A stretch of DNA of 64,000 nt, from NCBI RefSeq assembly GCF_003334815.1, contig NZ_QOWO01000001.1; one strand, given 5' to 3'. Below the pieces are notes generated by a model. It saw only the letters and a list, made by a program, of their open reading frames with translations. It was not told the origin of the DNA and made no database searches. Position 1 is the stretch's first letter, and every line of letters starts with the position of its first letter. Source of the DNA: Escherichia coli (GTDB taxonomy: Bacteria > Pseudomonadota > Gammaproteobacteria > Enterobacterales > Enterobacteriaceae). Positions 1 through 57,721 of the stretch are shown here, one piece after another. Position numbers and translations under genes: made by a program.

Positions 1-194
1 CTATCAGCGTTCAGTATTTATAAGAACTTGTAATACAGTTTTTATTTTTACGCATTAACCAGTTAGCTATAACTCGGACAGATTATGCCCTATGACATGG
101 TCTGTCTTAATCAATCTCATCGCAAACAGTGCATAACATATATTAACAATATGTTTCTGCGTTATTTATCATTATTACAGGAGTTTTAATTTAA

Positions 195-869
195 ATGCTC
201 AGACACATTACATTCACTGTATTTATAACAACATCAATGAATACCTTAGCCACAGGGATGGTTCCTGAAACATCAGTATTGCTGGTTGATGAAAAGCGTG
301 GTGAAGCTAGTATTAATATTAAGAATACAGATGATCATCCTTCATTGCTTTACACCACCATTGTTGATTTGCCTGAAAGCAATAAATCAATTCGTTTAAT
401 CCCGACTCAGCCCGTTATTCGTGTTGAAGCCGGTCAAGTACAACAGGTTCGATTTTTACTTCAGGCGACTGTTCCTCTGCAATCAGAAGAGCTGAAACGC
501 GTAACGTTCGAAGGTATTCCACCAAAAGATGACAAGAGCAGCAGAGTTACTGTTTCAATTCGTCAGGATCTACCTGTACTGATCCACCCGGCTTCCCTGC
601 CGGAAGAGCGAGAGACCTGGAAATTCCTGGAATGGCGTAAAAATGGCGACCAAATTGAGATTAGCAACCCCAGTAATTATGTCGTTCGTATGACCTTACA
701 ATTTAAAACGCTCCCTTCAGGAAAAACGGGGGCTATAAATAAGACCTATTTTCTACCACACACCAGTACAACTACTGCATTAACAAACGCTACGGATACA
801 AAAGTCGAGTTTTACCCAGCCAGCCGATATGGTTATCGCGGTAATAAATATGTCACTGACTTAAAATAA
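195..869 (+). CDS. yhcA: Periplasmic fimbrial chaperone (PapD-like) of the yhc chaperone-usher cluster
   Basis: ORF track 224 aa; sequence recognised as E. coli YhcA; position upstream of the usher. Confidence 0.9.
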   Translation: MLRHITFTVFITTSMNTLATGMVPETSVLLVDEKRGEASINIKNTDDHPSLLYTTIVDLPESNKSIRLIPTQPVIRVEAGQVQQVRFLLQATVPLQSEELKRVTFEGIPPKDDKSSRVTVSIRQDLPVLIHPASLPEERETWKFLEWRKNGDQIEISNPSNYVVRMTLQFKTLPSGKTGAINKTYFLPHTSTTTALTNATDTKVEFYPASRYGYRGNKYVTDLK

Positions 870-871
870 CT

Positions 872-3271
872 TTGCCTGGAGCGACAAGGATGTTAAAAAA
901 AACGTTACTGGCCTACACCATTGGTTTTGCCTTTTCTCCCCCAGCCAATGCAGATGGTATAGAGATTGCCGCTGTTGATTTTGATCGGGAAACATTAAAA
1001 TCACTAGGTGTAGATCCTAATATATCGCATTATTTTTCCCGTTCAGCCCGTTTTTTGCCAGGTGAATATTCACTGATAGTATCAGTAAATGGCGAAAAAA
1101 AAGGCAACATTGCTACGCGCTTTGATGAAAATGGCGACATTTGTCTTGATCAGGCATTTCTGCAACAAGCCGGTTTAAAAATTCCTTCTGAAGAAAAAAA
1201 TGGCTGTTACGACTATATATTGTCCTACCCGGGTACCACAATCACACCATTACCTAACCAGGAAGCGTTAGATATTATCGTTTCACCACAGGCGATCATT
1301 CCCATAGGGTTGGATCTCACAAACGCAGCAACTGGTGGAACAGCTGCGCTGCTAAACTACTCTCTGATGAGCAGCCGTGCAGAATTTTCTAATGGGAGTT
1401 CGGACTACTCCCAGGCTGCACTTGAAGGTGGGATTAATATTAATGACTGGATGTTACGCAGCCATCAGTTCCTTACACAAACAAATGGCACATTCAGTAA
1501 CCAGAACTCGTCAACCTACCTTCAACGTACCTTTACAGATCTTAAAACACTCATGCGAGCAGGTGAAGTTAACCTCAATAATAGCGTGTTGGAAGGAGCC
1601 AGTATTTACGGTATCGAAATCGCACCGGACAACGCATTGCAAACCAGCGGCAGTGGTGTGCAAGTTACTGGTATAGCCAACACCTCTCAGGCTCGTGTCG
1701 AGATTCGTCAACAAGGAGTTTTAATTCATTCCATTCTGGTTCCTGCGGGCGCATTCACTATCCCTGATGTACCTGTTCGCAATGGTAATAGTGATCTTAA
1801 TGTCACCGTTGTCGAAACAGACGGTAGTTCGCACAACTATATTGTTCCCTCCACCCTGTTTAATCAGCATGTAGAAAGCTTCCAGGGTTATCGCTTCGCG
1901 ATAGGGCGGGTAGACGATGACTATGACGAATCACCTTGGGTAATTAGTGCATCGAGCGGATGGAATCTGACACGCTGGAGTGCAATGAACGGCGGCGTTA
2001 TCGTAGCAGAAAATTATCAGGCGGCATCAATCCGGTCGAGTCTGGTTCCCCTGCCCGATTTAACAGTGAGCAGCCAAATTAGTACATCGCAGGATACGAA
2101 AGACTCACTGCAAGGACAGAAATATCGTCTTGACGCGAACTACAATCTCCCATTTTCACTTGGGCTAACAACCAGCCTCACTCGATCTGATCGCCATTAT
2201 CGCGAACTGTCTGAAGCGATTGATGATGATTATACCGATCCGACTAAAAGCACTTATGCGCTTGGTTTAAACTGGTCTAACTCCATTCTGGGTGGTTTCA
2301 ACATCAGTGGCTATAAAACATATAGTTACGACGGTGACAATGACTCAAGCAACCTTAATATTAACTGGAACAAAGCGTTCAAACACGCCACGGTTTCCGT
2401 CAACTGGCAGCATCAACTTAGTGCTTCAGAAAATAATGAAGACGATGGTGATCTGTTCTACGTCAACATCAGTATTCCATTTGGCAGATCAAACACCGCC
2501 ACACTGTATACTCGCCATGACGATCATAAAACCCACTATGGTACTGGTGTCATGGGAGTCGTCTCAGATGAGATGTCCTACTATGTGAATGCTGAACGAG
2601 ATCACGACGAACGTGAAACGAGCTTGAACGGCAGTATCAGTTCCAATCTCCATTACACCCAAGTCAGCCTTGCCGCAGGAGCAAGCGGCAGTGATAGCCG
2701 TACTTACAACGGTACGATGTCAGGTGGTATTGCCGTACATGATCAGGGAGTGACCTTTTCACCGTGGACTATCAATGACACTTTCGCCATCGCAAAAATG
2801 GATAACAATATTGCAGGTGTCAGAATTACATCTCAGGCAGGCCCAGTATGGACAGATTTTCGGGGTAATGCCGTCATTCCATCAATCCAGCCGTGGCGAA
2901 CATCAGGAGTTGAGATCGATACCGCCAGCTTGCCAAAAAATGTCGATATCGGTAACGGCACAAAAATGATCAAACAAGGCCGTGGTGCAGTAGGGAAAGT
3001 CGGATTCAGTGCGATAACACAACGCCGTGCATTACTCAATATCACACTTTCCGACGGCAAAAAACTGCCCAGAGGCGTTGCGATTGAAGATAGTGAAGGC
3101 AACTATCTGACAACATCAGTGGATGACGGTGTTGTATTCCTCAATAACATCAAACCGGACATGGTGCTAGATATAAAAGATGAGCAGCAATCATGCCGTA
3201 TTCACCTTACATTCCCAGAAGATGCACCAAAAGATGTGTTCTATGAGACAGCAACAGGAGAGTGCCAATGA
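872..3271 (+). CDS. yhcD: Outer-membrane fimbrial usher protein
   Basis: ORF track 799 aa; recognised as YhcD usher; canonical start may be the internal Met (MLKKTLLAY) a few codons downstream. Confidence 0.9.
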   Translation: MPGATRMLKKTLLAYTIGFAFSPPANADGIEIAAVDFDRETLKSLGVDPNISHYFSRSARFLPGEYSLIVSVNGEKKGNIATRFDENGDICLDQAFLQQAGLKIPSEEKNGCYDYILSYPGTTITPLPNQEALDIIVSPQAIIPIGLDLTNAATGGTAALLNYSLMSSRAEFSNGSSDYSQAALEGGININDWMLRSHQFLTQTNGTFSNQNSSTYLQRTFTDLKTLMRAGEVNLNNSVLEGASIYGIEIAPDNALQTSGSGVQVTGIANTSQARVEIRQQGVLIHSILVPAGAFTIPDVPVRNGNSDLNVTVVETDGSSHNYIVPSTLFNQHVESFQGYRFAIGRVDDDYDESPWVISASSGWNLTRWSAMNGGVIVAENYQAASIRSSLVPLPDLTVSSQISTSQDTKDSLQGQKYRLDANYNLPFSLGLTTSLTRSDRHYRELSEAIDDDYTDPTKSTYALGLNWSNSILGGFNISGYKTYSYDGDNDSSNLNINWNKAFKHATVSVNWQHQLSASENNEDDGDLFYVNISIPFGRSNTATLYTRHDDHKTHYGTGVMGVVSDEMSYYVNAERDHDERETSLNGSISSNLHYTQVSLAAGASGSDSRTYNGTMSGGIAVHDQGVTFSPWTINDTFAIAKMDNNIAGVRITSQAGPVWTDFRGNAVIPSIQPWRTSGVEIDTASLPKNVDIGNGTKMIKQGRGAVGKVGFSAITQRRALLNITLSDGKKLPRGVAIEDSEGNYLTTSVDDGVVFLNNIKPDMVLDIKDEQQSCRIHLTFPEDAPKDVFYETATGECQ

Positions 3272-3813
3272 AACGGATAATAACAGGATGCCTGCTGCTG
3301 AACTTCGCCATGGCCGCTCAGGCAGAGTGTAATATCTCCAGTAGCATACAAAATATCGACTATGGCAAACGAAGTGCTGCCATGCGCCAAGTTGACCGGG
3401 GTAAAACAACACAATTAGCAGACAGAACAATCACGCTGGTAATGCAATGCGATCAGGACGCTCATATTCGTGTTCAGTTGAATACCGCTAATATTTCCAA
3501 CAACGGATTTGGATTTGGCCCGAATGGTTCATTAAATCTGATCGCCAGCGATGCATTTTCAGGTAGTAACAATCTCGACCTGGCGTTAGCCAGTGGCAAA
3601 AATGACAATCCGGGCAGCACAGGAACAGCATCAATTAGTACTTCCCCCAATAATTGGCTGGTGTTTATGCAAAATGGTCAAGAAGTGGTAATTGATAGCG
3701 GTAAAAGCGTTAGCCTCACACTGACAATGGCTCCAGCTTTTAAGGATGAAGGGGAACTAACCGACATGACAGATATTACAGGCAATCTGACGGTCCTGGT
3801 GGAGGCAAAATGA
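3262..3813 (+). CDS. yhcE: Fimbrial-like protein, apparently intact
   Basis: ORF track 183 aa with signal-peptide-like N-terminus; position after the usher; no IS interruption visible. Confidence 0.7.
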   Translation: MPMKRIITGCLLLNFAMAAQAECNISSSIQNIDYGKRSAAMRQVDRGKTTQLADRTITLVMQCDQDAHIRVQLNTANISNNGFGFGPNGSLNLIASDAFSGSNNLDLALASGKNDNPGSTGTASISTSPNNWLVFMQNGQEVVIDSGKSVSLTLTMAPAFKDEGELTDMTDITGNLTVLVEAK

Positions 3814-4526
3814 ACAATGTAAAATTACTGATTGCCGGAAGTGCCTTTTTTGCCATGTCAGCGCAAGCCGCTGATAGAGTATCAATTGACGTTAAGGTGA
3901 CTCTGGAAGCTGCAGCTTGTACTCCAATACTAAGCAACGGCGGAGTTGTTAACTTCGGTAGTCATTCAGTCAATAGACTTTCAACGCAGCACTACACACA
4001 GATTGGAACACGTAATATTAATATGACTATAACTTGCGAATCCGCTACCGGCATTGCGATTACCGCTCGTGATACACGAATGGATAGTATGACCACCGGA
4101 AAAGATAGTGGGGGTCAGAGTGGTGTAAAATATACCTTAAATGGCGGAGGTTATATTAGCCAGACAACGCGCTTATTCGGCTTAGGGAAAACAAAAGATA
4201 ATAAAAATATCGGTAGTTATGCCGTGTTAATTGATAGCAACAACATTAGTGCCAGCAATGGTAGCCAGACGTTAGCTGTATCAATAGCAGGTGCAGATGC
4301 CGTCATAACAGGGCAAAAAAGAGCATGGCAAACGCTCACCGCTTATCCGCTTGCAGTCGATCAAAGCTATTATTACACCTTTGTAAAACCAGGTGAAACA
4401 ACCCCAACTCCTGTAACGAACGCCATTATACCGCTTCAGGTGAGCGCATCTATCGCGAATGATTTAGGCGGTTCAGAAAAAATCGAACTTGATGGGAAAG
4501 CTGTGATAAGCGTAGTCTACTTGTGA
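3810..4526 (+). CDS. yhcF: Fimbrial-like protein / putative adhesin subunit
   Basis: ORF track 238 aa; signal peptide (MNNVKLLIAGSAFFAMSAQA); overlaps the yhcE stop. Confidence 0.75.
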   Translation: MNNVKLLIAGSAFFAMSAQAADRVSIDVKVTLEAAACTPILSNGGVVNFGSHSVNRLSTQHYTQIGTRNINMTITCESATGIAITARDTRMDSMTTGKDSGGQSGVKYTLNGGGYISQTTRLFGLGKTKDNKNIGSYAVLIDSNNISASNGSQTLAVSIAGADAVITGQKRAWQTLTAYPLAVDQSYYYTFVKPGETTPTPVTNAIIPLQVSASIANDLGGSEKIELDGKAVISVVYL

Positions 4527-4710: not shown

Positions 4711-5838
4711 ATGGAATCGCTCTCAGAAGGAACCACAGCAGGCTACCAGCAAATCCACGACGGTATTATTCATCTGGTCGATAGCGCCCGGACGGAAACG
4801 GTACGTAGCGTTAACGCGTTAATGACCGCGACGTACCAGGAAATTGGCCGACGAATTGTCGAATTTGAACAAGGTGGCGAGGCCAGGGCTGCGTATGGTG
4901 CGCAGCTAATCAAGCGACTATCAAAGGATTTATGTCTAAGGTATAAGCGTGGGTTCTCTGCAAAAAACTTACGCCAAATGAGGCTTTTTTACCTCTTTTT
5001 TCAACATGTTGAAATTCGCCAGACAATGTCTGGCGAATTAACACCATTGGGAATTCCGCAGACACCGTCTGCAGAATTCCCATCGGCAAAGATTTGGCAG
5101 ACGCTGTCTGCCAAATCTTTCCCCTTGCCCAGGTCCACCTACGTCCGTTTACTTTCCGTTAAAAACGCTGACGCCCGCAGCTTTTATGAAAAAGAGACGC
5201 TCCGCTGTGGCTGGTCTGTTCGCCAGCTAGAGCGGCAAATTGCGACCCAGTTTTATGAGCGGACACTACTGTCACATGACAAATCAGCCATGCTGCAACA
5301 ACACGCTCCTGCCGAGACGCATATTCTTCCGCAACAGGCGATACGCGATCCCTTTGTGCTCGAATTTCTGGAATTGAAAGATGAATATTCAGAATCCGAT
5401 TTTGAGGAGGCGCTGATCAACCACCTGATGGATTTCATGCTGGAACTTGGGGATGATTTTGCCTTTGTTGGTCGGCAGCGAAGGTTACGCATTGATGACA
5501 ACTGGTTTCGTGTCGATCTGCTGTTTTTCCACCGCCGTTTACGCTGCCTGCTAATCGTCGATCTAAAAGTGGGCAAATTCAGCTATAGCGATGCCGGACA
5601 GATGAATATGTATCTCAACTACGCCAAAGAGCACTGGACGCTACCGGATGAAAATCCGCCCATCGGTCTGGTTCTCTGTGCAGAGAAAGGAGCCGGAGAA
5701 GCGCATTATGCTCTGGCAGGTTTGCCTAACACCGTTCTGGCAAGCGAATATAAGATGCAACTACCTGATGAGAAACGACTCGCAGATGAACTCGTTCGAA
5801 CACAGGCGGTGCTAGAGGAAGGCTATAGACGCCGTTAA
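4711..5838 (+). CDS. yhcG: DUF1016-family protein (PDDEXK nuclease-like YhcG)
   Basis: ORF track 375 aa; recognised as YhcG; contains three in-frame palindromic DNA units at 5013-5116. Confidence 0.85.
   Translation: MESLSEGTTAGYQQIHDGIIHLVDSARTETVRSVNALMTATYQEIGRRIVEFEQGGEARAAYGAQLIKRLSKDLCLRYKRGFSAKNLRQMRLFYLFFQHVEIRQTMSGELTPLGIPQTPSAEFPSAKIWQTLSAKSFPLPRSTYVRLLSVKNADARSFYEKETLRCGWSVRQLERQIATQFYERTLLSHDKSAMLQQHAPAETHILPQQAIRDPFVLEFLELKDEYSESDFEEALINHLMDFMLELGDDFAFVGRQRRLRIDDNWFRVDLLFFHRRLRCLLIVDLKVGKFSYSDAGQMNMYLNYAKEHWTLPDENPPIGLVLCAEKGAGEAHYALAGLPNTVLASEYKMQLPDEKRLADELVRTQAVLEEGYRRR
5013..5116. repeat. Three tandem palindromic units (core GCAGACA-N1-3-TGTCTGC) inside the yhcG coding sequence
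   Basis: Read directly: aattcgccagacaATGTCTGGCGAATT (5013-5039), gaattccgcagacaccgtctgcagaattc (5051-5079), tttggcagacgctgtctgccaaa (5094-5116). Confidence 0.8.
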
Positions 5839-5852
5839 TTTCAGCGGTTTCG

Positions 5853-5879
5853 AATTCTGCAGACAGTGTCTGCAGAATC
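5853..5879. terminator. Fourth copy of the same palindrome, just after the yhcG stop and before the nanQ stop; probable bidirectional hairpin
   Basis: attctgcagacagtgtctgcagaat is a perfect 13-bp-arm palindrome between convergent genes. Confidence 0.5.
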
Positions 5880-5897
5880 TTTAAAACGAACTAAGTT

Positions 5898-7230
<1,333 letters not shown>

Positions 7231-28927: not shown

Positions 28928-28956
28928 TTAGTTACTGCAGTAGAGGATTTTTTACG

Positions 28957-29190
28957 GCTGCCGGATGCGGCGTGAACGCCCTATCCAGCCTACGGTTATG
29001 TTCCGGTTTGTAGGCCTGATAAGACGCACAGCGTCGCATCAGGCAACGGCTGTCGGATGCGGCGTAAACGCCTTATCCGACCTACGGTTATGTTCCGTTT
29101 GTAGGCCTGATAAGACGCACAGCGTCGCATCAGGCAACGGCTGCCGGATGCGGCGTGAACGCCCTATCCGATCTACGGTTATGTTCTGGC
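28957..29190. repeat. REP/BIME array: three tandem copies of a ~78-bp unit built from REP palindromes
   Basis: gccggatgcggcgtgaacgccctatcc...tgtaggcctgataagacgcacagcgtcgcatcaggca repeated three times with point differences. Confidence 0.9.
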
Positions 29191-48054: not shown

Positions 48055-48351
48055 ATGTTCGAACAACGCGTAAATTCTGACGTACTGACCGTTTCTACCG
48101 TTAACTCTCAGGATCAGGTAACCCAAAAACCCCTGCGTGACTCGGTTAAACAGGCACTGAAGAACTATTTTGCTCAACTGAATGGTCAGGATGTGAATGA
48201 CCTCTATGAGCTGGTACTGGCTGAAGTAGAACAGCCCCTGTTGGACATGGTGATGCAATACACCCGTGGTAACCAGACCCGTGCTGCGCTGATGATGGGC
48301 ATCAACCGTGGTACGCTGCGTAAAAAATTGAAAAAATACGGCATGAACTAA
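48055..48351 (+). CDS. fis: Nucleoid-associated protein Fis
   Basis: ORF track 98 aa; exact Fis sequence ([15 protein letters not shown]...KKYGMN). Confidence 0.98.
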
Positions 48352-48363
48352 AGTCAAGCTGTA

Positions 48364-48373
48364 ACGGCATGAA
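48364..48373. repeat. Left copy of the 10-bp direct repeat ACGGCATGAA (candidate attL core)
   Basis: Exact match to 57684-57693; 13 bp after the fis stop. Confidence 0.55.
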
Positions 48374-48375
48374 AT

Positions 48376-48408
48376 TAAAGGGGCTATTTCAGCCCCTTTA
48401 CTTTTTGT
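48376..48408 (+). terminator. Rho-independent terminator serving fis; lies inside the island boundary
   Basis: aaaggggctatttcagcccctttactttttgtt, located between the left direct repeat and the tape-measure stop. Confidence 0.75.
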
Positions 48409-48428
48409 TGCAACCGTACTGACAACCC

Positions 48429-50702
48429 TTATGGTGTTTGCGCGCCATCTATCATCATGCTTCGCTGCCTTACTGCTTGTTGCTGTCGTAGTTGCTGTAT
48501 CACCTTCCGGGCTAATGCATCTTCATTCATACCAGGTTCTGCCTTCACGCTGATGTGGTACTGGTCGTTGCTATGCACCGTAGTGCCACCAGAGCGGTTG
48601 GCCAGTGCAGGTGACGGCAGGGCAGCACCAGAGGCAGTGGTTGCTGCTGGCTGCTGTACATCGTCGCGGAATGGTGCGGTAAAGAAATCTTTGGTTTTCT
48701 GCCACGCACCACCAGCAACATCAGACACGGCGTTTTTAAACTCCAGTGCCTTGTTGGTCAGGTTGCCAATGTTGTCAGAAACCCAAATGATCTTATCAAT
48801 CAGGAACGTGATCGGTGCGGTCACAAGCTCGATGCCAGCCGCCAGGGTCTTACCGAACGTCATCCCCATTTTACCGGCCTTATCCAGTTCCTCGCCGCTG
48901 TATTTGACCGGTTCGGTCAGTGACGTGAACCAGTTGAAAGCCGTCTTAACCGCAGCGCCCACGCCATCAATGACGGGCTTCAATGGCCCCATGCGCTCAT
49001 ACAGGCGATGCAGGGCATCGCTAAGCGGTTCCAGCCCGGATTTGATACCTTCACCCACGCCACCAAAAAAAGCCTTCACACCAGCCCAATGGCGGTAAAT
49101 CTGATAACCTGCCAGCGCCAGGCCAGCTACGGCAGCACCAACGCCAGTGGAAATGAACGCCGCACCGATGGCGCGCACGCCGGTAGCCACCGCAGGCAGG
49201 CCACGAGTGCTGGCCAGAACGGCGGATGCGTTCATGCGGGCAAACAGGCTGGACACGTTCAGCAATCCGCCTTTCAGGAACGTGAACGCAAAGCCAGCGG
49301 CGAACGTCGCCACACGCAGTGCCACCAGTGCACTGGAACCAATAACCACTGCTTTGGTCACGGTAGGGTATTCGCGCGCCAGTTCGGCAACCTTGCCGAT
49401 AACCGGGCCAACGGTAGCCAGAACGCCGTTGAATGCTGGCAGCAGCACTGTGCCGATCGTGACGCCCAGGTTAGACACACGGTTGTTGAAAATCTTAAGC
49501 TGCGCCGACGTTTTGGCGGTGGCTGCCTCATATTCAGCCTGCATAGAACCGGCATATTTGGTCTTGTCTTTGACCATATCCAGATTCTTTTGGTACGTAT
49601 CAAGCTGTGTCAGCATTGGTGCGATAGCGCCAATCGATTCCTTACCAAACAGTTGCGAAAGCGTTGCCGCCTGCATGTGTTTTGGCAGCTTGCTGATCTT
49701 GGACAGGATGACGCGGATTGTTTCATCGGCGTTCAGTTGCATTGATTTTGCAACCTGCTTGGATGTGAAGCCAAGCTGTTTAAACGCTTCACGCTGTGAC
49801 TTCGTGGCGGATGCGCCAGCGGTCAGGGATAGCAGCAGGTTTTTAATACCGGTGGCCGCAATCTCATTCTGCACGCCCATACCGCGCAGCGTTGCACCCA
49901 TCGCAGCGATAGAACCGGAAGCTGCACCAGCGACGCTGCCAAGTGGCCCGATGCGCTGCGTGATTTCCAGGATGTCTTTGGCTGATGCGGCGGTGTTGTT
50001 GCCCAGGTAGTTGATCTTGTCGGCCAGAACGTTCATCTGGTCCTGCGTCATCCCGAAGGCGGCGCGCATCTCTGCCATTGCCTGGCCTGCCTGGTCGGCG
50101 CTGACGTCAAAAGCCACACCCATTTTGATGGCCGATTCAGCAAACTTGGTTAGTTCGCTGGTGGCGATGCCTGATTGAGCACCAGCGGCAACAATCTTGC
50201 CGATTTCGTTGGCTGCCATCGGCATTTTGGTTGACATATCCTGGATAGCCTGGCCCATCTTAACCAGGCCGTCAGGGGTTTCGAAGTTGGCAACCTTGCG
50301 GATATCTGCCAGCGTATCTTCAAAATCCATAGCCTGTTTGATCGGTACAGCTACCGTTGCGCCAAGTGCGACAGTCCCCAGGATTCCTTCTTTGTAGCCT
50401 TGACGCTTCGCCAGGTTGCGTTCGCGGGCATCCTCCACGCGTTTCAGGCGTTCGGTGGCAGAACGAAGGCGTTCAACCTGCCCGACAACCGTTTGATAGC
50501 GGTCCTTCATGCGGGAGAATATCGCGCTATCCTGGCCATAACGCTTCATTGCTTCATTTAACTGGCGCTGTTCGCGCGACAGCTTAGAGATTGCGCTACC
50601 AATCTCGACGGTATTTTTCTTTACAGTTCCAAATGCACCACGAAGGCTGCCGGAAACGGCCCCACCAATCGTGATTGTTGCATTTAACTTCTTGTTGGCC
50701 AT
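48429..50702 (-). CDS. Phage tail tape measure protein (TP901-family core-like)
   Basis: ORF track 757 aa; N-terminal coiled coil, Ala/Gly-rich core (GNNTAASAKDILEITQRIGPLGSVAGAASGS...), hydrophobic C-terminal segments; called on recognised family features, not a search. Confidence 0.75.
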   Translation of the reverse strand: MANKKLNATITIGGAVSGSLRGAFGTVKKNTVEIGSAISKLSREQRQLNEAMKRYGQDSAIFSRMKDRYQTVVGQVERLRSATERLKRVEDARERNLAKRQGYKEGILGTVALGATVAVPIKQAMDFEDTLADIRKVANFETPDGLVKMGQAIQDMSTKMPMAANEIGKIVAAGAQSGIATSELTKFAESAIKMGVAFDVSADQAGQAMAEMRAAFGMTQDQMNVLADKINYLGNNTAASAKDILEITQRIGPLGSVAGAASGSIAAMGATLRGMGVQNEIAATGIKNLLLSLTAGASATKSQREAFKQLGFTSKQVAKSMQLNADETIRVILSKISKLPKHMQAATLSQLFGKESIGAIAPMLTQLDTYQKNLDMVKDKTKYAGSMQAEYEAATAKTSAQLKIFNNRVSNLGVTIGTVLLPAFNGVLATVGPVIGKVAELAREYPTVTKAVVIGSSALVALRVATFAAGFAFTFLKGGLLNVSSLFARMNASAVLASTRGLPAVATGVRAIGAAFISTGVGAAVAGLALAGYQIYRHWAGVKAFFGGVGEGIKSGLEPLSDALHRLYERMGPLKPVIDGVGAAVKTAFNWFTSLTEPVKYSGEELDKAGKMGMTFGKTLAAGIELVTAPITFLIDKIIWVSDNIGNLTNKALEFKNAVSDVAGGAWQKTKDFFTAPFRDDVQQPAATTASGAALPSPALANRSGGTTVHSNDQYHISVKAEPGMNEDALARKVIQQLRQQQAVRQRSMMIDGAQTP

Positions 50703-50723
50703 AATAATTGTGCTCTCAAGGAA

Positions 50724-50930
50724 TTAATTAAGTAAATTTTCTGCAAGGGTGTGTTCACCGATTGCCCGCAAGGCGGCAGCGGCCAGTTGCAGGGCGCATT
50801 CGGTGCGGTAGTCTCGCTGTTTCTGCATTTCCTCCGCTGTGTTGCACGCCAGAACTTTTGGCAGGACCATATCCACCAGTTCAGGCCAGGGGTTTGTTCC
50901 TTCCGGTTTTGTGTGAATACGGTCCAGCAT
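50724..50930 (-). CDS. Small hypothetical protein immediately upstream of the tape measure gene (possible tail assembly chaperone)
   Basis: ORF track 68 aa; same strand and tight spacing within the operon; no recognisable motif. Confidence 0.4.
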   Translation of the reverse strand: MLDRIHTKPEGTNPWPELVDMVLPKVLACNTAEEMQKQRDYRTECALQLAAAALRAIGEHTLAENLLN

Positions 50931-50939
50931 GGTGCCCCC

Positions 50940-51257
50940 TTATGCACTCCGTACCAGGATAGCGCCGCGCTTCACCGCCTGGCGTTTGGCCCGTTCACCG
51001 GAACTGATGCGGCTGGATGGTTGCCACTTCGTGCGTCCCAGGGCGGATGCGTGGCTTTCCGCTTCGTCACGCATGATGCGGCCCGCTTCATCGGTCATGT
51101 GTTCGAATGCGTTTAAACGGTTGCGAAGGCTTGCCAGCAGGTCGGCTGCTTCGTAGCTGATAGGGTTTTTCTCTGAAATGGTTTGGAAACGCTTTGTTTC
51201 GCTAAGGATCAAACGCGCTTCTTCTTTCATTGATTCGTACAGGTCATGTTTTTTCAT
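50940..51257 (-). CDS. Hypothetical protein (possible tail assembly chaperone); start uncertain
   Basis: ORF track 149 aa (50940..51389); preferred start at the internal MKKHDLYESMKEE (ATG at 51257, ~104 aa) because the upstream extension is low-complexity. Confidence 0.4.
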   Translation of the reverse strand: MKKHDLYESMKEEARLILSETKRFQTISEKNPISYEAADLLASLRNRLNAFEHMTDEAGRIMRDEAESHASALGRTKWQPSSRISSGERAKRQAVKRGAILVRSA

Positions 51258-51471
51258 AGTATTGGCCGCTAACAATAGTTGTTGATGATTAAGTGAGTGC
51301 GCGCTTTTAGGTGACAGGTGCGGCGCAACCGGTGTGGAATTAGTGGTGGTTTTGACCGTCCAGGATGACCACCAACCTGGTTCCAGCATCCATCGTCTGA
51401 GGAACGATGAAGGTTAAATTTGGCCGGTTATTTGGGGCACAGGGAACCGGTGAAACCTGTATTCTTGGCCA

Positions 51472-51636
51472 TTATTTGCCGTTCAGCCCGCTACTCAGAA
51501 ACTTTTCAATCACCTGGCTGCGTGAAGGGCGGATGCCTGTTCTGCGTTCCAGTTTGGCTTGCTCTCTTTCGACCTGGCGCACCAGGTCAGGGGCGAGGCG
51601 TACCGTTACGTGCTGGCGTGTTTCTTGTCGTTTCAT
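51472..51636 (-). CDS. Ribbon-helix-helix (CopG/Arc-like) DNA-binding protein, 54 aa; absent from the ORF track (below length cutoff)
   Basis: Hand-translated: MKRQETRQHVTVRLAPDLVRQVEREQAKLERRTGIRPSRSQVIEKFLSSGLNGK; beta-strand then two helices typical of RHH; starts 3 nt after the upstream gene stop. Confidence 0.55.
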   Translation of the reverse strand: MKRQETRQHVTVRLAPDLVRQVEREQAKLERRTGIRPSRSQVIEKFLSSGLNGK

Positions 51637-51639
51637 GGC

Positions 51640-51960
51640 TTAGTACCTGTTCATCCAGCTTTCGCGCTTCTGTTTCGGGCGCTGCTCGCGGTAGTGACTG
51701 CGCACCAGGGAAGCGAGGTAATTCACGGCGCGTTCAATCTGGTACTGCTTAAGCTCCGGGTAAGCCTTGCGAATCCATTTTTCAGCAGCGTCATCGCTGT
51801 AGATGAATCCTGACCAGCCAACCGGCTGCACTACGATGCGCGGTGTGTTTTCATCACCGTGGCGCACATACATGGCCACACCTTCGATAGCTGCCAGGAT
51901 TTCACCCGGCAGGGCAGCGCGCTCCGCTGCCGCTTTTTTGCTGCCCCACCACATGATCAA
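51640..51960 (-). CDS. Hypothetical protein, ~105 aa, translationally coupled to the downstream RHH gene
   Basis: ORF track 106 aa; TTG or ATG start overlapping the stop of the upstream 294-aa gene. Confidence 0.45.
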   Translation of the reverse strand: MIMWWGSKKAAAERAALPGEILAAIEGVAMYVRHGDENTPRIVVQPVGWSGFIYSDDAAEKWIRKAYPELKQYQIERAVNYLASLVRSHYREQRPKQKRESWMNRY

Positions 51961-52841
51961 GCCTTCCAGAACATAGTTGAGTCAGGCACCAGTGCGGATG
52001 CGTTCACCCACACAACGATTTCAACGGCACCATTCAGCACGCGGCGGGCGGTGACGCGGATTTCATCATCCAGGGCAACGGCTGCATTGCCGAAAGCGCC
52101 AATGATTGTGCTGGAAGTCTGGCCGCTGATTTCAGCGCGTACACCGTAGGCACGCAGAACGCCGTCTTGCAGTTCCAGGCCGGTGCAATCACCGCCAACA
52201 ATGGCTTTAACTTCATCAAAGCGCAGGTTTTTGGCTGCAATCTTCTGCGCCACTGCGGTGAATGACGGGCTGGCCAGCGTTTCCGCTGCGGTTTCCAGGT
52301 GGTTCAGCAGTACGAAATCAGCCAGGTCAGCAATTCCGCGTTCAATGGCGGTGTTGACCACTTCCAGCGTGGTATCGTCTGCGAAGTCGTGTTTCATCTG
52401 CTTGCGGCTAAGGGTGTAGCCCACGCCGTAAGCCGGTGCGTTGTTGTGGTTGAACGCTGATACCAGGTAAGGCAGGCCGCTCATGGTGATTTCTTCGCCG
52501 TCAGCCACTTTGGCGAACGCACCAGGGCGAACGACAACGAAGCGGTCAGCCACTTCGCGGCCAGTCGTTGCGCCGGTGTTGCCAGTCGGAGGCGTGGTCA
52601 TCGGGCCAGGGATGCGGATGATTTCAGCGCCTGCCTGTGCCACCAGTGAACGTTCAGCCAGAACAGCGTTGAAGGTGGTCTGCTTGCCGCCTTTCGGGGT
52701 CAGCACGTCATTCATGGACAGGTAGCGAACTGCTGCAGGTTCCACAGGGATGAATTGAGTAATGTCACCGTTGCCATCAGTGCGAATGTGGCCGCCCTGG
52801 TGGTTCAACGCGTCGTTGATAAGTTGAGATAAAACGTTCAT
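51957..52841 (-). CDS. Phage structural-like protein, 294 aa (major tail- or capsid-like; unassigned)
   Basis: ORF track 322 aa; start moved to MNVLSQLINDAL (ATG at 52841), which has a GGAG RBS 8 nt upstream; first gene of the minus-strand operon ending in the tape measure. Confidence 0.4.
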   Translation of the reverse strand: MNVLSQLINDALNHQGGHIRTDGNGDITQFIPVEPAAVRYLSMNDVLTPKGGKQTTFNAVLAERSLVAQAGAEIIRIPGPMTTPPTGNTGATTGREVADRFVVVRPGAFAKVADGEEITMSGLPYLVSAFNHNNAPAYGVGYTLSRKQMKHDFADDTTLEVVNTAIERGIADLADFVLLNHLETAAETLASPSFTAVAQKIAAKNLRFDEVKAIVGGDCTGLELQDGVLRAYGVRAEISGQTSSTIIGAFGNAAVALDDEIRVTARRVLNGAVEIVVWVNASALVPDSTMFWKA

Positions 52842-53229
52842 TAAAAATGCTCCGGTTGTTGTGCAATAAATCGTCTGGAATGACTTAAAGATATACAGTA
52901 ACCAGGCCGAACACAATAGCCACAATGTGAGCTTTTTAATGTAAAATCAGTAACTTATAACCATGAATACTTGCAAATAACCAGGCATAATCCGGCGTAA
53001 TCGATATTTACACATCTTTACAATTCAGCGTGTGTAAAACGTGTTCGCTTTATTTTGCAATCTCGCAAGTATGGTTCCAGTGCTTTGATAGGATTCACAT
53101 AAATGATTGATTTACTTGACGTAATCATAAAGTGAGTTTTGTAGGGGCACGCACAACGCGAATTACGCGGGACCAATGCCCCCGCAGGCTGTACCCCCCT
53201 CGGAAGTACCTTGACTTTTTTGGCAGCAG

Positions 53230-53540
53230 ATGGCGATGACACCTAATGTCACCATGACGGCGTTATGTTGGAAAGGTGTCATTAGGTGTCATAGCGGGAA
53301 ACACGCTGATTATTAAAGAAAAATACAAACAAGATAATGTAATGAATGACACCTGTGACACCATGACACCCATTTCTATAAAGTATAACGACCACTGTTA
53401 CATTATCACAGTGGTCGTTATTTTCTTTAAAAATGCTGTCATAGGTGTCATAGGTGTCATTAGTAATGTCGCAACCCTTGCGGGTTATGGCTTGAGAACA
53501 ATGACACCTGCCATGACACCTTATAAATTAATGACACCTA
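53230..53540. repeat. Iteron array: at least 10 perfect copies of the octamer ATGACACC/GGTGTCAT in both orientations, with a central 9-bp-arm palindrome; probable replication origin
   Basis: Perfect copies start at 53236, 53275, 53285, 53346, 53363, 53444, 53453, 53501, 53513 and 53531; variants at 53246, 53355 and 53435; palindrome gaccactgt-N9-acagtggtc at 53390-53416; located 3' of the primase gene. Confidence 0.7.
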
Positions 53541-53607
53541 GGCGTCACTTTGAAAATAAAAAAAGCCCCGGCATTCGCCAGGGTAATGGGCAACAACTGT
53601 TGTGATG

Positions 53608-53832
53608 TTATGATCGGATGAACGGCAAGATTTCAGCGGAATCCACTACCCTTATGCGGTAGCTGCATAGCAGGTTTTCACCCAACTTGGCCAGTTCCTG
53701 CTGCACCTCTGGCAGCCTATTGCGAGCATGGTCTACCGCTTCCTGTTCAGTGGCGAAACCCTCCATAATTTCGGTTTCGGTGTAGGTGCCGTGTTCCGGG
53801 TCAAAAGCAATGATATATGCGCGATAACTCAT
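53608..53832 (-). CDS. Small hypothetical protein between the primase gene and the iteron origin
   Basis: ORF track 74 aa; GAGG RBS 6 nt upstream of the ATG. Confidence 0.5.
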   Translation of the reverse strand: MSYRAYIIAFDPEHGTYTETEIMEGFATEQEAVDHARNRLPEVQQELAKLGENLLCSYRIRVVDSAEILPFIRS

Positions 53833-53841
53833 AGTATTACC

Positions 53842-55530
53842 TCAAAACTGGTGGTTAGGCCCATCAAAATAGCGATGGTCTTGCTGTCCAAAAACTTTCG
53901 GTGGCATTAGGTAAAAACGCCCTTTACTTGTTCTACGTGCATCCCTTCCTGTCAGTTTTCGCAGAATGTTACCGCACTGCGTTGCCTGGGATTTTGTTGG
54001 CCGATCCTGCCCAATAGACAACAGAACATCCGTTGCAGTCATTTCTATATATGCAGCCAGGCGATCACTGTTCCAATCAAAACGCGCCAATATCATTTCT
54101 TCAATCGGGTCAGTTTGCCCGTGCTGTTCGTTCACGACTTCCAGCATGGCTTCTTCATCACGGTCCAGCCACCAGCGTTCACCTGCTTCAAACCAGGAAA
54201 GAACTTCGGCCCATAATTGTTGTGTGTCTATGCCATGCTCGTAGTTAACGGCAGTTACAGGAATGGTCCACCAGCGCACGTTCCCGGTGTCATCCGCCAG
54301 GAAGTGTTTCGGGTTCACTGACGCAAAAAACACGGTGCGGCGCTGGTACTTCGATTCAAGCCGGTCATAAGGGCGGCGCAGGTCATCACGGTCCTGGCTG
54401 ATAAATGCTTTGAGCTTGGCAATATCCGCCTTGCGAAACGTCGCATCCAATTCGCCTAGCTCAACAAGCCAGTGACTAATTGCGCTGGCCACGCTGTCTT
54501 TATTGCCGGGGTCAATAGTTGCTCCCACCTTAACCAGGTTGCGATTGTCAGGGGGCAGAAGCGCTTTAAACCATGCTGTTTTACCCAGTGACTGCTCGCC
54601 CTGGAAAACCAGCACGCCTTTGGACCAGAAACCCGCTTCTAAGTAAGCAGCCGCCACGGCAGACAGCAACCAACGACGCACCAGCATGGCCAGCAGATCG
54701 CGACTGTAGTCATCTGGCGTGCTGATAGTATTCAGCAGGTCTGCAAATCGGCTTCGTCCATCCCATTCACGTTGATTGATGAAATCCCTGACAGGATTAT
54801 AAGTATTGCGCACAGCGATAGTTTTGATATGACCTTCAATATTACTCATTGGTAACCGGTTCAGTGCGGCGAGGCTTAAAATTTCACTCACAGCGCAGTT
54901 ATCGCGAGCATCTGAACCGCCACTAACGCCAGGTACTAAAACCTCAACGTCCTTGCTAATCTCATTATATTTTGCAGAAATGCTGTAGTTATCTAATAGA
55001 CGTTCAACATTAGGGCGTGTGTTTAAAGGCTGGCCATTGCTTCCAATATTTGGCCAGGTTGTCATTAATACAGGAGCCATATCGTGAATGTCTTTTACAG
55101 TTGCTGCGGCGGTTGCTCGTTCTTCTTTGCGCAGCATGCCCACCAGGCTTTCACCGCGTAGGGCGGCGTCTCTAAGCCTGTCCATGTTCCATTTTTCCGG
55201 TTCACGGTCAGTAATGCCTTTAAATAAACGGGCTTCCTTAACTCCAGCCACTGCCAGCTTGTCAGCAATAGTGCTGATTTGAAGTTGCTTAATATCACCA
55301 GCCAGATATACCCGCGCAGACCGGCGACCATCGTCGATAATTCGTAGATTATCTAAATCATCCAGTTGTCTTGGCCCAAGGTAGACAGGAGGAGTAGTGT
55401 CACCGGCAACTTGTTTACCCATTCCTTCTTCCCAGCCCTTGGCATGGCTCCAAGCGTCAGAACCGGCAAAAATAATTGCTTCCGTAAAAGGGTCTTTAGG
55501 TAATAGCTTAACGTTAGGCGCGTTTCTCAT
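53842..55530 (-). CDS. Satellite-type primase / replication initiator with P-loop NTPase domain
   Basis: ORF track 562 aa; Walker A motif GEQSLGKTAW; sits between alpA and the iterons as in P4 alpha / PICI pri-rep arrangements. Confidence 0.65.
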   Translation of the reverse strand: MRNAPNVKLLPKDPFTEAIIFAGSDAWSHAKGWEEGMGKQVAGDTTPPVYLGPRQLDDLDNLRIIDDGRRSARVYLAGDIKQLQISTIADKLAVAGVKEARLFKGITDREPEKWNMDRLRDAALRGESLVGMLRKEERATAAATVKDIHDMAPVLMTTWPNIGSNGQPLNTRPNVERLLDNYSISAKYNEISKDVEVLVPGVSGGSDARDNCAVSEILSLAALNRLPMSNIEGHIKTIAVRNTYNPVRDFINQREWDGRSRFADLLNTISTPDDYSRDLLAMLVRRWLLSAVAAAYLEAGFWSKGVLVFQGEQSLGKTAWFKALLPPDNRNLVKVGATIDPGNKDSVASAISHWLVELGELDATFRKADIAKLKAFISQDRDDLRRPYDRLESKYQRRTVFFASVNPKHFLADDTGNVRWWTIPVTAVNYEHGIDTQQLWAEVLSWFEAGERWWLDRDEEAMLEVVNEQHGQTDPIEEMILARFDWNSDRLAAYIEMTATDVLLSIGQDRPTKSQATQCGNILRKLTGRDARRTSKGRFYLMPPKVFGQQDHRYFDGPNHQF

Positions 55531-55795
55531 ATCGCACCCCGCGTTTTAACTCCAGATACATCGCCCATGATTCAGAATCGCTGATGCGAAACGGCACCAG
55601 GCTATCAGCCATAGCGGCGTGACGTGAAACAATAGTCCACGGGCGGTTTACACCTTCGCGAATGCATGCTTGCAACAATAATTGTGCTGCCGCCATACGC
55701 TGGGCGGTAAGTTCGCCAACGGTTAACTGGCGCTGTGGGTTACGCAACAGGCTGTTATAGCGACTGATAGCCTGATTTACGGTTGTTTTCTTCAT
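55514..55795 (-). CDS. Small hypothetical protein directly upstream of the primase gene, overlapping its start
   Basis: ORF track 93 aa; GAGGTGG RBS; 17-nt overlap with the primase start. Confidence 0.5.
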   Translation of the reverse strand: MKKTTVNQAISRYNSLLRNPQRQLTVGELTAQRMAAAQLLLQACIREGVNRPWTIVSRHAAMADSLVPFRISDSESWAMYLELKRGVRYEKRA

Positions 55796-55803
55796 AAGCC
55801 ACC

Positions 55804-55983
55804 TCAGCGCTGTACTGGCTGGCGGCTTTCAAGCCACGCCATAACATCTTTGCGCCGCCAGGCCACGCGTTTTGGCCCTAATTTTATGCAATTAGGAAAC
55901 GTGCCAGCCTGGATATAGCGCCAGATAGTCATGCGGGATAATGTTGTTAGTGTTGTGACTTGCTTAGCAGTCAGTAATTCCAT
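55804..55983 (-). CDS. alpA: AlpA-family phage transcriptional regulator (MerR-like HTH), 59 aa; absent from the ORF track (below length cutoff)
   Basis: Hand-translated: MELLTAKQVTTLTTLSRMTIWRYIQAGTFPNCIKLGPKRVAWRRKDVMAWLESRQPVQR; classic AlpA signature; GAGGG RBS. Confidence 0.7.
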   Translation of the reverse strand: MELLTAKQVTTLTTLSRMTIWRYIQAGTFPNCIKLGPKRVAWRRKDVMAWLESRQPVQR

Positions 55984-56277
55984 CTTACGGCCCTCAAAAC
56001 ATGGCCGGTGGATATGTGGTCTGTAATGATTTATGATTATGTTGCGTTAACAAAGAACGCGACCATTACAGCCTTCACCGGCTTTTTGGTATTAAGGGGT
56101 TCGGTTTTCTGTTTGGCGACGTGAACCGATCCCCGCCTTATTCAAGCCCTCAGTTCTGCTGGGGGCTTTTTATTACTACATGACAATAATACTCAAATTG
56201 TATCAGCAGTAAATACCCTTTAAATTCATAAACTTAACTGCAAATAACGCTACATAACTCTATATAATCATCAATTT

Positions 56278-57513: not shown

Positions 57514-57683
57514 AGAGTTAATGACAACCTTTTTGACAACTGTATGCAGGGAGTAACTGATAACTGATGATACAATGCGAGCCAATAAAAAATAAATATC
57601 TCTTTCCGCATCAATTATTTATGATGAATACAAATTATCTAGAGTGATAATAAATTACGTATAATGACTCTGTATTTTACAAT

Positions 57684-57693
57684 ACGGCATGAA
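57684..57693. repeat. Right copy of the 10-bp direct repeat ACGGCATGAA (candidate attR core)
   Basis: Exact match to 48364-48373; ~170 bp beyond the integrase start. Confidence 0.55.
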
Positions 57694-57721
57694 CTAATTC
57701 AGGTTAGCTAAATGCTTGATT

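What the first reader, a model, noticed from the sequence alone, without database searches (positions are those of the whole stretch)
3262..3813. yhcE appears intact here, unlike the IS-interrupted allele I recall for K-12
The 183-aa frame runs without interruption and overlaps the yhcD and yhcF boundaries as in an operon. My recollection is that K-12 MG1655 yhcE is split by an IS5 copy. If that is right, this window comes from a non-K-12 background with a potentially functional yhc fimbrial operon.
Basis: established knowledge. Interest (0 to 1): 0.25.

Follow-up and report, generated by a model that had tools for sequence, protein, structure and literature searches.

The report
Intact yhcE; K-12 carries IS5
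This window carries the ordinary uninterrupted wild-type yhcE gene of a cryptic E. coli fimbrial operon; laboratory K-12 has it split by an IS5 element, which is already published, and the only new point is a prediction that YhcE is the fibre's tip subunit.

Summary
Window 3268..3813 (+) encodes a 181-aa YhcE. The 183-aa frame from GTG 3262 is only the mechanical ORF. The gene overlaps yhcD and yhcF by ATGA on each side. In MG1655, yhcE (b4569) is a pseudogene split by IS5R/insH10. The IS sits at the TTAG that is single in the window (3635..3638) and duplicated around the IS in K-12.

The window is not K-12. It has about 21 SNPs over about 55 kb and a 9.3-kb island at the end of fis that MG1655 lacks. 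Of 5426 complete E. coli genomes, about 1141 carry yhcE. The insertion site is uninterrupted in 788, and 343 carry the exact K-12 IS5 junction; every such record listed in the output is a laboratory strain. Intact yhc loci without the IS have been reported in phylogroup A ETEC and in E. coli C.

Added here: YhcE is predicted to have a chaperone-usher pilin fold and lacks the N-terminal donor strand that GltF and YhcF have. It is under purifying selection (dN/dS about 0.15). In other bacteria it occurs fused upstream of a YhcF-like domain. It is therefore most likely the distal tip subunit of this beta-class fimbria. Whether the operon is expressed or functional remains untested.

The parts
1..23 (+). 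Last 23 nt of gltF, the first gene of the gltF-yhcADEF operon (DUF1120 putative subunit). The rest of the gene and the promoter lie outside the window.
   Evidence: Window position 1 corresponds to L003 position 919, and gltF ends at L003 941.
195..869 (+). yhcA, a PapD-like periplasmic fimbrial chaperone (224 aa), intact.
   Evidence: NCBIfam PRK09918 scores 319.7 bits against a cutoff of 183. There are 0 nt differences from MG1655.
890..3271 (+). yhcD, the outer-membrane usher (793 aa), intact.
   Evidence: NCBIfam PRK15304 scores 1273 bits against a cutoff of 723. One synonymous difference from MG1655 lies at window 1429.
3256..3260 (+). AGGAG Shine-Dalgarno sequence for yhcE, 7 nt upstream of the ATG at 3268.
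   Evidence: Read directly from the sequence.
3268..3813 (+). yhcE, uninterrupted, 181 aa. It has a signal peptide ending AQA|E and is predicted to be a pilin-fold subunit without an N-terminal donor strand. The mechanical ORF starts at GTG 3262.
3635..3638 (.). TTAG, the empty IS5 target site. In K-12 it is duplicated on either side of IS5R, which truncates YhcE after residue 123.
3810..4526 (+). yhcF, a DUF1120 putative fimbrial subunit (238 aa) with an N-terminal extension ADRVSIDVKVTLEAAA. Its start overlaps the yhcE stop by 4 nt (ATGA).

Best explanation
The window carries the ancestral, uninterrupted allele of yhcE. This is the fourth gene of the beta-class chaperone-usher operon gltF-yhcA-yhcD-yhcE-yhcF, in a wild-type E. 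coli closely related to K-12 but not K-12. The K-12 allele is the derived state: one IS5 inserted at the TTAG at codons 123/124. That insertion removes the C-terminal 58 residues of YhcE and places 1.2 kb of IS5 between yhcF and the upstream part of the operon. All of this is shown directly.

The mechanism is inferred. YhcE is exported by a Sec signal peptide and folds as an incomplete Ig-like pilin domain held by the YhcA chaperone. It has no N-terminal extension, so it can accept a donor strand but cannot donate one. It can therefore sit only at the distal end of the fibre. The YhcD usher would incorporate it first, and the N-terminal extension of YhcF would complement it. YhcF, GltF or both would then polymerise beneath it. 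On this reading YhcE plus YhcF is a split version of a two-domain tip adhesin. I put the allele and derived-state part at about 0.97 and the tip-subunit mechanism at about 0.55.
For: Allele status:
- MG1655 and DH10B annotations show yhcE split by IS5.
- TTAG is duplicated in K-12 and single in the window.
- 788 genomes have the uninterrupted site and 343 have the exact K-12 junction. Every full-length junction match listed in the sampled output is a laboratory K-12 derivative or an unlabelled record of K-12-like size.
- SNPs and the island separate the window from K-12.
- Published reports already give the same result (PMC5216030; PMC6805351; PMC11677980).

A real, selected gene:
- The same five-gene locus, all genes intact, lies between gltBD and the nan operon in E. 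ruysiae, E. albertii and a further Escherichia lineage.
- yhcE dN/dS is 0.15-0.16.
- A 33%-identical relative sits in the same order, DUF1120-chaperone-usher-YhcE-DUF1120.

Pilin fold:
- The AF2 model has mean pLDDT 89.5.
- Foldseek top hits are likewise chaperone-usher pilins.
- The two cysteines are invariant in 47 family members.
- hhalign aligns the Cys-Cys region to YhcF and GltF, with E 1e-4 and 4e-5.

No donor strand:
- Mature YhcE starts E-C. The homologous Cys in YhcF and GltF is preceded by 16-18 residues with an alternating hydrophobic pattern.
- The short N-terminus is conserved across the family.

Partnership with YhcF:
- The yhcE stop and yhcF start overlap by ATGA.
- An AF2 model of mature YhcE with the YhcF and GltF extensions tethered behind it puts the YhcF peptide (residues 170-180) in a beta-strand at pLDDT about 76-86. 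The GltF peptide stays disordered at pLDDT below 50.
- Natural fusion proteins of 375-377 aa consist of a YhcE-like domain (hhalign probability 99.5%, E 6e-23) followed by a YhcF-like DUF1120 domain (BLASTP E 1e-19). They occupy the slot directly after the usher.
Against: - No expression, assembly or binding data exist for any beta-class fimbria.
- A yhc deletion in ETEC 100664 did not change Caco-2 adherence (PMC5216030).
- The locus is absent from about 79% of complete E. coli genomes.
- It is hit independently by IS1 and by an IS1-associated deletion in other strains, so it is dispensable.
- YhcE itself has no significant Pfam hit (DUF1120 at E 0.11). It scores below the cutoff of its nearest NCBIfam model (54 bits against 226).
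- The tethered-peptide model is a single prediction. The YhcF peptide was placed first on a shorter linker, which may bias the outcome. Strand pairing could not be inspected because only DSSP and pLDDT are returned.
- gltF and the promoter are outside the window.
Confidence: 0.8

Rival explanations
1. The ORF is intact, but the operon is a silent, decaying relic in E. coli. On this view the intactness of yhcE reflects the lack of a disrupting event rather than current function, and the gene contributes nothing to the cell.
For: - The locus is present in only about 21% of complete genomes.
- Independent inactivations exist: IS5 in K-12, IS1 in strain 1283, and an IS1-associated deletion from gltF into yhcF in TBU0218_10-1CC.
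- The locus has 40-47% GC, against 55-59% in the adjacent nan genes. That composition is typical of H-NS-silenced cryptic fimbrial operons; this link is inference.
- A yhc deletion in ETEC gave no Caco-2 phenotype (PMC5216030).
Against: - dN/dS is 0.15-0.16 for yhcE and 0.05-0.11 for its neighbours against other Escherichia species.
- All five genes are intact and keep the same overlaps in three other Escherichia lineages.
- The gene order is kept at 33% identity.
- Within E. coli the alleles are nearly identical, so recent selection in E. coli itself cannot be measured.
Confidence: 0.2
2. YhcE is a pilin-fold protein that is not a tip subunit. It could be a periplasmic assembly modulator that occupies the chaperone or usher, or a terminator or anchor.
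For: - The literature calls its function unclear and suggests that beta fimbriae lack tip subunits (PMC5216030 citing Nuccio and Baumler 2007).
- Similarity to DUF1120 subunits is weak.
Against: - Known terminators (PapH, FimI) carry an N-terminal extension so that they can join the base of the fibre; this rests on established knowledge. YhcE and its whole family lack one.
- Fusion proteins place the YhcE-like domain N-terminal to a YhcF-like pilin domain. This is the topology of two-domain tip adhesins.
Confidence: 0.15
3. The window comes from a K-12 derivative in which IS5 excised precisely and restored yhcE.
For: The flanking sequence is 99.96% identical to MG1655 and the site carries exactly one TTAG.
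Against: - About 21 SNPs over about 55 kb, a 9-bp indel in mreC and a 9.3-kb integrase-bearing island at fis are all absent from MG1655.
- The first 25 kb matches wild isolates from livestock and humans at a displayed identity of 100.0%.
- From prior knowledge, K-12 sublines differ from each other by only a handful of SNPs genome-wide.
Confidence: 0.01

Closest known systems
E. coli K-12 MG1655 yhcE (b4569), a pseudogene interrupted by IS5R/insH10
   Same: The coding DNA is identical on both sides of the insertion point, with 0 nt differences in yhcE. The neighbours yhcD and yhcF and the chromosomal position are the same.
   Different: The window lacks the 1195-bp IS5 and has one copy of the TTAG target instead of two. 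The window therefore encodes the full 181-aa protein. The K-12 5' fragment, read through into IS5, would give a 159-aa chimera containing YhcE residues 1-123.
Intact yhc (beta-class chaperone-usher) loci reported in phylogroup A ETEC (Del Canto et al. 2017, PMC5216030) and in E. coli C (PMC6805351)
   Same: The gene order is gltF-yhcA-yhcD-yhcE-yhcF without the IS, and yhcF is the 717-bp K-12 form.
   Different: No difference of substance. The window is another example of what those papers describe.
Single-domain tip (capping) subunits of chaperone-usher fibres that lack a donor strand: AfaD/DraD, AggB, SafD
   Different: There is no detectable sequence similarity. YhcE belongs to the beta clade with DUF1120-type subunits. 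Its tip location is predicted, not shown.
Two-domain tip adhesins FimH and PapG
   Different: In E. coli the two modules are separate polypeptides. The distal module (YhcE) would have to be held by intermolecular donor-strand exchange. No lectin-type receptor-binding domain is recognisable.

Membership tests
K-12-type yhcE::IS5 pseudogene allele | IS5 inserted at the TTAG after codon 123, flanked by a TTAG duplication | tested here: not met
   The window runs continuously across 3635-3638 with a single TTAG. MG1655 carries IS5R between two TTAG copies.
YhcE family protein (RefSeq WP_000821351.1) | Full-length 181-aa product identical or near-identical to the RefSeq protein | tested here: met
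   Window 3000-4100 is 100% identical in DNA to strain D9, where the CDS is annotated WP_000821351.1. The window protein is 99% identical, over 100% of its length, to the representative of cluster P0001 (737 member sequences).
Beta-class chaperone-usher fimbrial operon (Nuccio and Baumler clade; yhc type) | A YhcD-type usher with a PapD-like chaperone encoded next to it | tested here: met
   The usher scores 1273 bits on NCBIfam PRK15304 (cutoff 723). The chaperone scores 319.7 bits on PRK09918 (cutoff 183).
Beta-class chaperone-usher fimbrial operon (yhc type) | Complete five-gene set gltF-yhcA-yhcD-yhcE-yhcF with intact frames | tested here: inconclusive
   Four of the five genes are intact in the window. 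Only the last 23 nt of gltF are in the window, and the promoter is outside it.
Chaperone-usher pilin subunit (incomplete Ig fold, donor-strand complemented) | Sec signal peptide and a pilin-type Ig fold with a conserved disulfide pair | tested here: met
Chaperone-usher pilin subunit (polymerising type) | An N-terminal extension (donor strand) preceding the first conserved Cys | tested here: not met
   Mature YhcE begins E-C. YhcF has 16 residues and GltF 18 residues before the homologous Cys. The absence is conserved across the family. YhcE is therefore not a shaft or adaptor subunit.
Pfam Fimbrial (PF00419) / DUF1120 (PF06551) | A significant match to the family HMM | tested here: not met
   The only hit for YhcE is DUF1120 at E 0.11. 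Among 47 relatives, 16 reach E<=0.1 for DUF1120 and none reaches E<=0.001; one reaches E<=0.001 for Fimbrial and one for SCPU. The relationship is remote. hhalign gives E 1e-4 to 4e-5 over the first 50 residues or so.
Functional adhesive fimbria | Expression, surface assembly and binding activity | not testable with these tools
   Only negative published data exist: ETEC 100664 with yhc deleted showed no change in Caco-2 adherence (PMC5216030).

The most novel reading that the evidence does not exclude
YhcE, described in the literature as a protein of unclear function in a fimbrial class said to lack tip subunits, may be the distal tip module of beta-class chaperone-usher fibres. On this reading it is a donor-strand-less pilin-fold domain, complemented by the N-terminal extension of YhcF. 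E. coli YhcE plus YhcF would then be a naturally split form of the fused two-domain tip proteins found in related operons. The K-12 IS5 insertion would remove the initiating subunit, which would explain why the yhc operon was set aside as non-functional in K-12 studies.
Probability: 0.5. Interest if true: 0.35.

Novelty: already known. Interest (0 to 1): 0.12.

Why it matters
As stated, the finding matters little. It is a correct strain-typing observation: the window is a wild-type E. coli closely related to K-12, and not K-12. It repeats published facts. Modest value lies in two points.

(1) The yhc operon is the only beta-class chaperone-usher system in E. coli and no member of that class has ever been characterised. 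Anyone who wants to study it must use a non-K-12 allele like this one, or repair K-12.

(2) The analysis gives a specific, testable role for YhcE as a tip subunit partnered with YhcF. This contradicts the view that beta fimbriae lack tip subunits.

Tried and rejected
- Sequence search of solved structures with the YhcE profile gave only chance hits, PLD4 at E 0.11.
- Pfam and NCBIfam gave no significant family for YhcE.
- BLASTP of YhcE against YhcF and GltF was not significant on its own, E 0.017 and 0.22. Profile comparison and structure prediction were needed.
- A 'distant' blastn for diverged yhcE alleles within complete E. coli genomes found none below 95%. The 80%-identical 'E. coli'-labelled homologue (P0008) is therefore not represented in that collection.
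- A literature search for DUF1120 plus fimbria found nothing.
- P0052 gave only a short contig, cut within the upstream gene, with no recognisable fimbrial genes downstream, so it was uninformative.
- I considered precise IS5 excision from K-12 and rejected it on the SNPs and the island.
- I considered a terminator role and rejected it because the family lacks a donor strand.
- No genome in the collection is identical across the 9.3-kb island (best 99.8%), so the exact source strain could not be named.
Full report
**1. The observation**

On the + strand an open frame runs from GTG 3262 to the TGA at 3811-3813, giving 183 aa. The functional start is almost certainly the ATG at 3268, giving 181 aa. 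Three things support this:
- An AGGAG lies at 3256-3260, 7 nt upstream of that ATG and only 1 nt from the GTG.
- RefSeq annotates the identical DNA in strain D9 as a 546-nt CDS, 'YhcE family protein' WP_000821351.1.
- All Escherichia orthologues are 181 aa.

The yhcD stop and yhcE start share ATGA at 3268-3271. The yhcE stop and yhcF start share ATGA at 3810-3813.

**2. The K-12 comparison**

MG1655 (NC_000913.3) annotates yhcE (b4569) as a pseudogene in two fragments. They are separated by 'insertion sequence:IS5R' with insH10 (b3218) at 3365556-3366750, in the opposite orientation to yhcE. DH10B shows the same arrangement.

Aligning the window to MG1655 gives two collinear blocks, window 1-3638 and 3635-29186. 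The 4-nt overlap is TTAG. In MG1655 the junctions read ...CAATTAG|GGAAGGTGCG (IS5 end) and CGCACCTTCC|TTAGTACTT. IS5 is therefore flanked by a TTAG duplication, and the window holds the single, unoccupied target at 3635-3638. The K-12 state is derived.

The insertion falls after codon 123. Read through into IS5, the K-12 5' fragment would encode a 159-aa chimera that lacks the last 58 residues of YhcE.

**3. Is the background K-12?**

No. Outside the IS5 site, the window differs from MG1655 in these ways:
- 10 substitutions in window 1-29186 and about 21 over the roughly 55 kb that aligns.
- A 9-bp in-frame indel in mreC and differences in REP-element copies.
- A 9.3-kb insertion (about 48352-57680) at the 3' end of fis.

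The first 25 kb matches many wild isolates from calf, pig and human at a displayed identity of 100.0%. Within the yhc genes, YhcA, YhcD, YhcE (after removing the IS in silico) and YhcF are identical in protein to K-12. The only nucleotide difference is a synonymous change in yhcD at 1429. The source is a close wild relative of K-12. The literature places yhc carriers in phylogroup A (PMC5216030).

**4. Population picture**

Among 5426 complete E. coli genomes:
- 1141-1144 carry this DNA, almost all at >=99% identity, and none on plasmids.
- A 156-bp probe across the insertion site is contiguous in 788 genomes.
- A 160-bp probe across the K-12 yhcE/IS5 junction is matched in full by 343 genomes. 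The listed examples are laboratory K-12 derivatives (ER1709, DH1, NEB Turbo, EV36, 'K-12') or unlabelled records of K-12-like size.
- About ten genomes have other states. Strain 1283 has an IS1 inside yhcE. Strain TBU0218_10-1CC has an IS1 and a deletion from gltF into yhcF.

The uninterrupted allele is the norm among carriers. The IS5 allele looks like a marker of the K-12 lineage. The locus as a whole is dispensable in E. coli.

**5. Already in the literature**

- Del Canto et al. 2017 (PMC5216030) describe complete beta-class yhc loci 'lacking the IS' in 13 phylogroup A ETEC genomes. They note 353 database entries identical to intact YhcE. They call YhcE's function unclear. They report that a yhc deletion in ETEC 100664 did not change Caco-2 adherence.
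- The E. coli C genome paper notes that the K-12 IS5 insertion in yhcE is absent there (PMC6805351).
- The IS5 copy in yhcE is one of the 11 catalogued in BW25113 (PMC11677980).
- Wurpel et al. 2013 had no intact Yhc representative in their dataset and treated it as a sporadic type (PMC3559732).

The finding is correct but not new.

**6. What YhcE is**

Family databases say little. The only Pfam hit is DUF1120 at E 0.11. The best NCBIfam model scores 54 bits against a cutoff of 226. There is no solved relative by sequence.

A profile search of 1.8 billion representatives found 119 relatives. Most are 175-200 aa, and about 14 are 375-398 aa. In a 47-member alignment only M1, C21 and C61 are invariant, and the first Cys follows the predicted signal-peptide cleavage site by 1-6 residues in every member.

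The N-terminal Cys...Cys segment aligns with YhcF and GltF (hhalign E 1e-4 and 4e-5). All three share the motif C-x8-9-[IV][DN][YF]G. YhcE is therefore a remote, pilin-fold relative of the DUF1120 subunits.

**7. Why a tip subunit is the most likely role (inference)**

- Mature GltF and YhcF carry 18 and 16 residues before the conserved Cys, with the alternating hydrophobic pattern of donor strands (TELTIIGEY; VSIDVKVTL). Mature YhcE starts E-C.
- In chaperone-usher assembly (established knowledge), a subunit without an N-terminal extension can accept a strand but cannot donate one. It can therefore occupy only the distal end and enters the usher first.
- yhcE and yhcF overlap by ATGA, consistent with translational coupling.
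- An AF2 model of mature YhcE followed by tethered YhcF and GltF extensions puts the YhcF peptide in an 11-residue beta-strand at pLDDT about 76-86. The GltF peptide stays disordered. The caveats are a possible order or linker bias and the lack of coordinates to inspect.
- Natural fusions exist. P0053 (377 aa) matches the YhcE profile over residues 11-177 (probability 99.5%, E 6e-23) and YhcF over residues 178-377 (E 1e-19). The YhcF extension region forms the inter-domain segment. Its relative P0047 is encoded directly after the usher in a DUF1120/chaperone/usher operon.
- Such fusions place the YhcE-like domain N-terminal to the YhcF-like domain; if that second domain joins the fibre as a pilin domain, as in FimH and PapG, the YhcE-like domain is the distal one.

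**8. Evidence that the gene is maintained**

The five-gene locus lies at the same place, between gltBD and nanQKETAR, with all frames and overlaps intact, in three other lineages. YhcE identity to the window is 78% in E. ruysiae, 59% in E. albertii and 80% in a further Escherichia lineage. yhcE dN/dS against the two closer lineages is 0.15-0.16, similar to yhcF (0.11) and nanK (0.10). A 33%-identical homologue keeps the same gene order. This argues against YhcE being a meaningless ORF. It says nothing about current expression in E. coli. The locus is AT-rich, 40-47% GC against 55-59% for the nan genes, as is common for silenced fimbrial operons.

**9. Verdict**

Novelty is 'already known' and interest is low. 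The one addition of some value is the prediction that YhcE is the donor-strand-less tip module partnered with YhcF. I put this at about 0.5-0.55. It is testable by multimer modelling, donor-strand-exchange assays and immunogold EM.

Noticed in passing
window 48335-57697 (island body about 48352-57680): A 9.3-kb element absent from MG1655 is integrated at the 3' end of fis. It is flanked by a perfect 17-bp direct repeat, AATACGGCATGAACTAA, which is the last 17 nt of fis including the stop, at 48335-48351 and 57681-57697. All long genes are on the - strand: a tyrosine integrase (56278-57585), a small HTH gene, a VapE/primase-helicase (53842-55530), several small hypothetical genes, and a 757-aa tail tape-measure homologue (48429-50702; phrog_28 E 3e-129). 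The primase and tape-measure genes are 77-81% identical in DNA to those of ECO1230-10/ep3-like myophages. Only 47 of 5426 complete E. coli genomes carry the element at >=80% coverage. It could be a phage satellite carrying its own tape-measure gene, or a heavily deleted prophage.
   Followed up: partly
L015 7001-8128 (P0047); also P0053 and about 12 other proteins of 374-398 aa: These are natural fusion proteins: a YhcE-like domain followed by a YhcF-like DUF1120 domain. P0047 is encoded directly after the usher in a related chaperone-usher operon. This is a 'Rosetta stone' link between YhcE and YhcF.
   Followed up: yes
window 195-4526 compared with L010, L012 and L013: The yhc operon is mosaic between species. 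Window YhcA and YhcD are closer to E. albertii (82-83% aa) than to E. ruysiae (67-74%). YhcE and YhcF are closer to E. ruysiae (78-86%) than to E. albertii (59-69%). Synonymous divergence of the yhc genes (0.6 to saturated) far exceeds that of the adjacent nanK (0.27-0.51). This suggests recombination or old allelic lineages at this surface-structure locus.
   Followed up: partly
L006 (strain 1283) 1769-3090; L005 (strain TBU0218_10-1CC) 5248-6490: The same locus has been inactivated independently in other strains: an IS1 inside yhcE in one, and an IS1 with a deletion running from gltF into yhcF in another.
   Followed up: yes
window about 35766 (mreC, - strand, near its 3' end): A 9-bp in-frame deletion relative to MG1655, which has an extra AGGCGCAGT at NC_000913.3 about 3398974-3398982. 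This is a 3-codon length polymorphism in the C-terminal part of MreC.
   Followed up: no
window 28954-29186 (tldD-yhdP intergenic region): A tandem REP-like repeat region aligns to MG1655 in several registers (92-94% between copies) and carries several of the SNPs. This is ordinary REP/BIME variability.
   Followed up: no
window 4711-5838 (yhcG): yhcG (PDDEXK nuclease / DUF1016) is present between yhcF and nanQ in the window and in K-12, with one R103H difference. It is absent from the orthologous position in E. ruysiae and E. albertii, so it looks like a later insertion next to the fimbrial operon.
   Followed up: no
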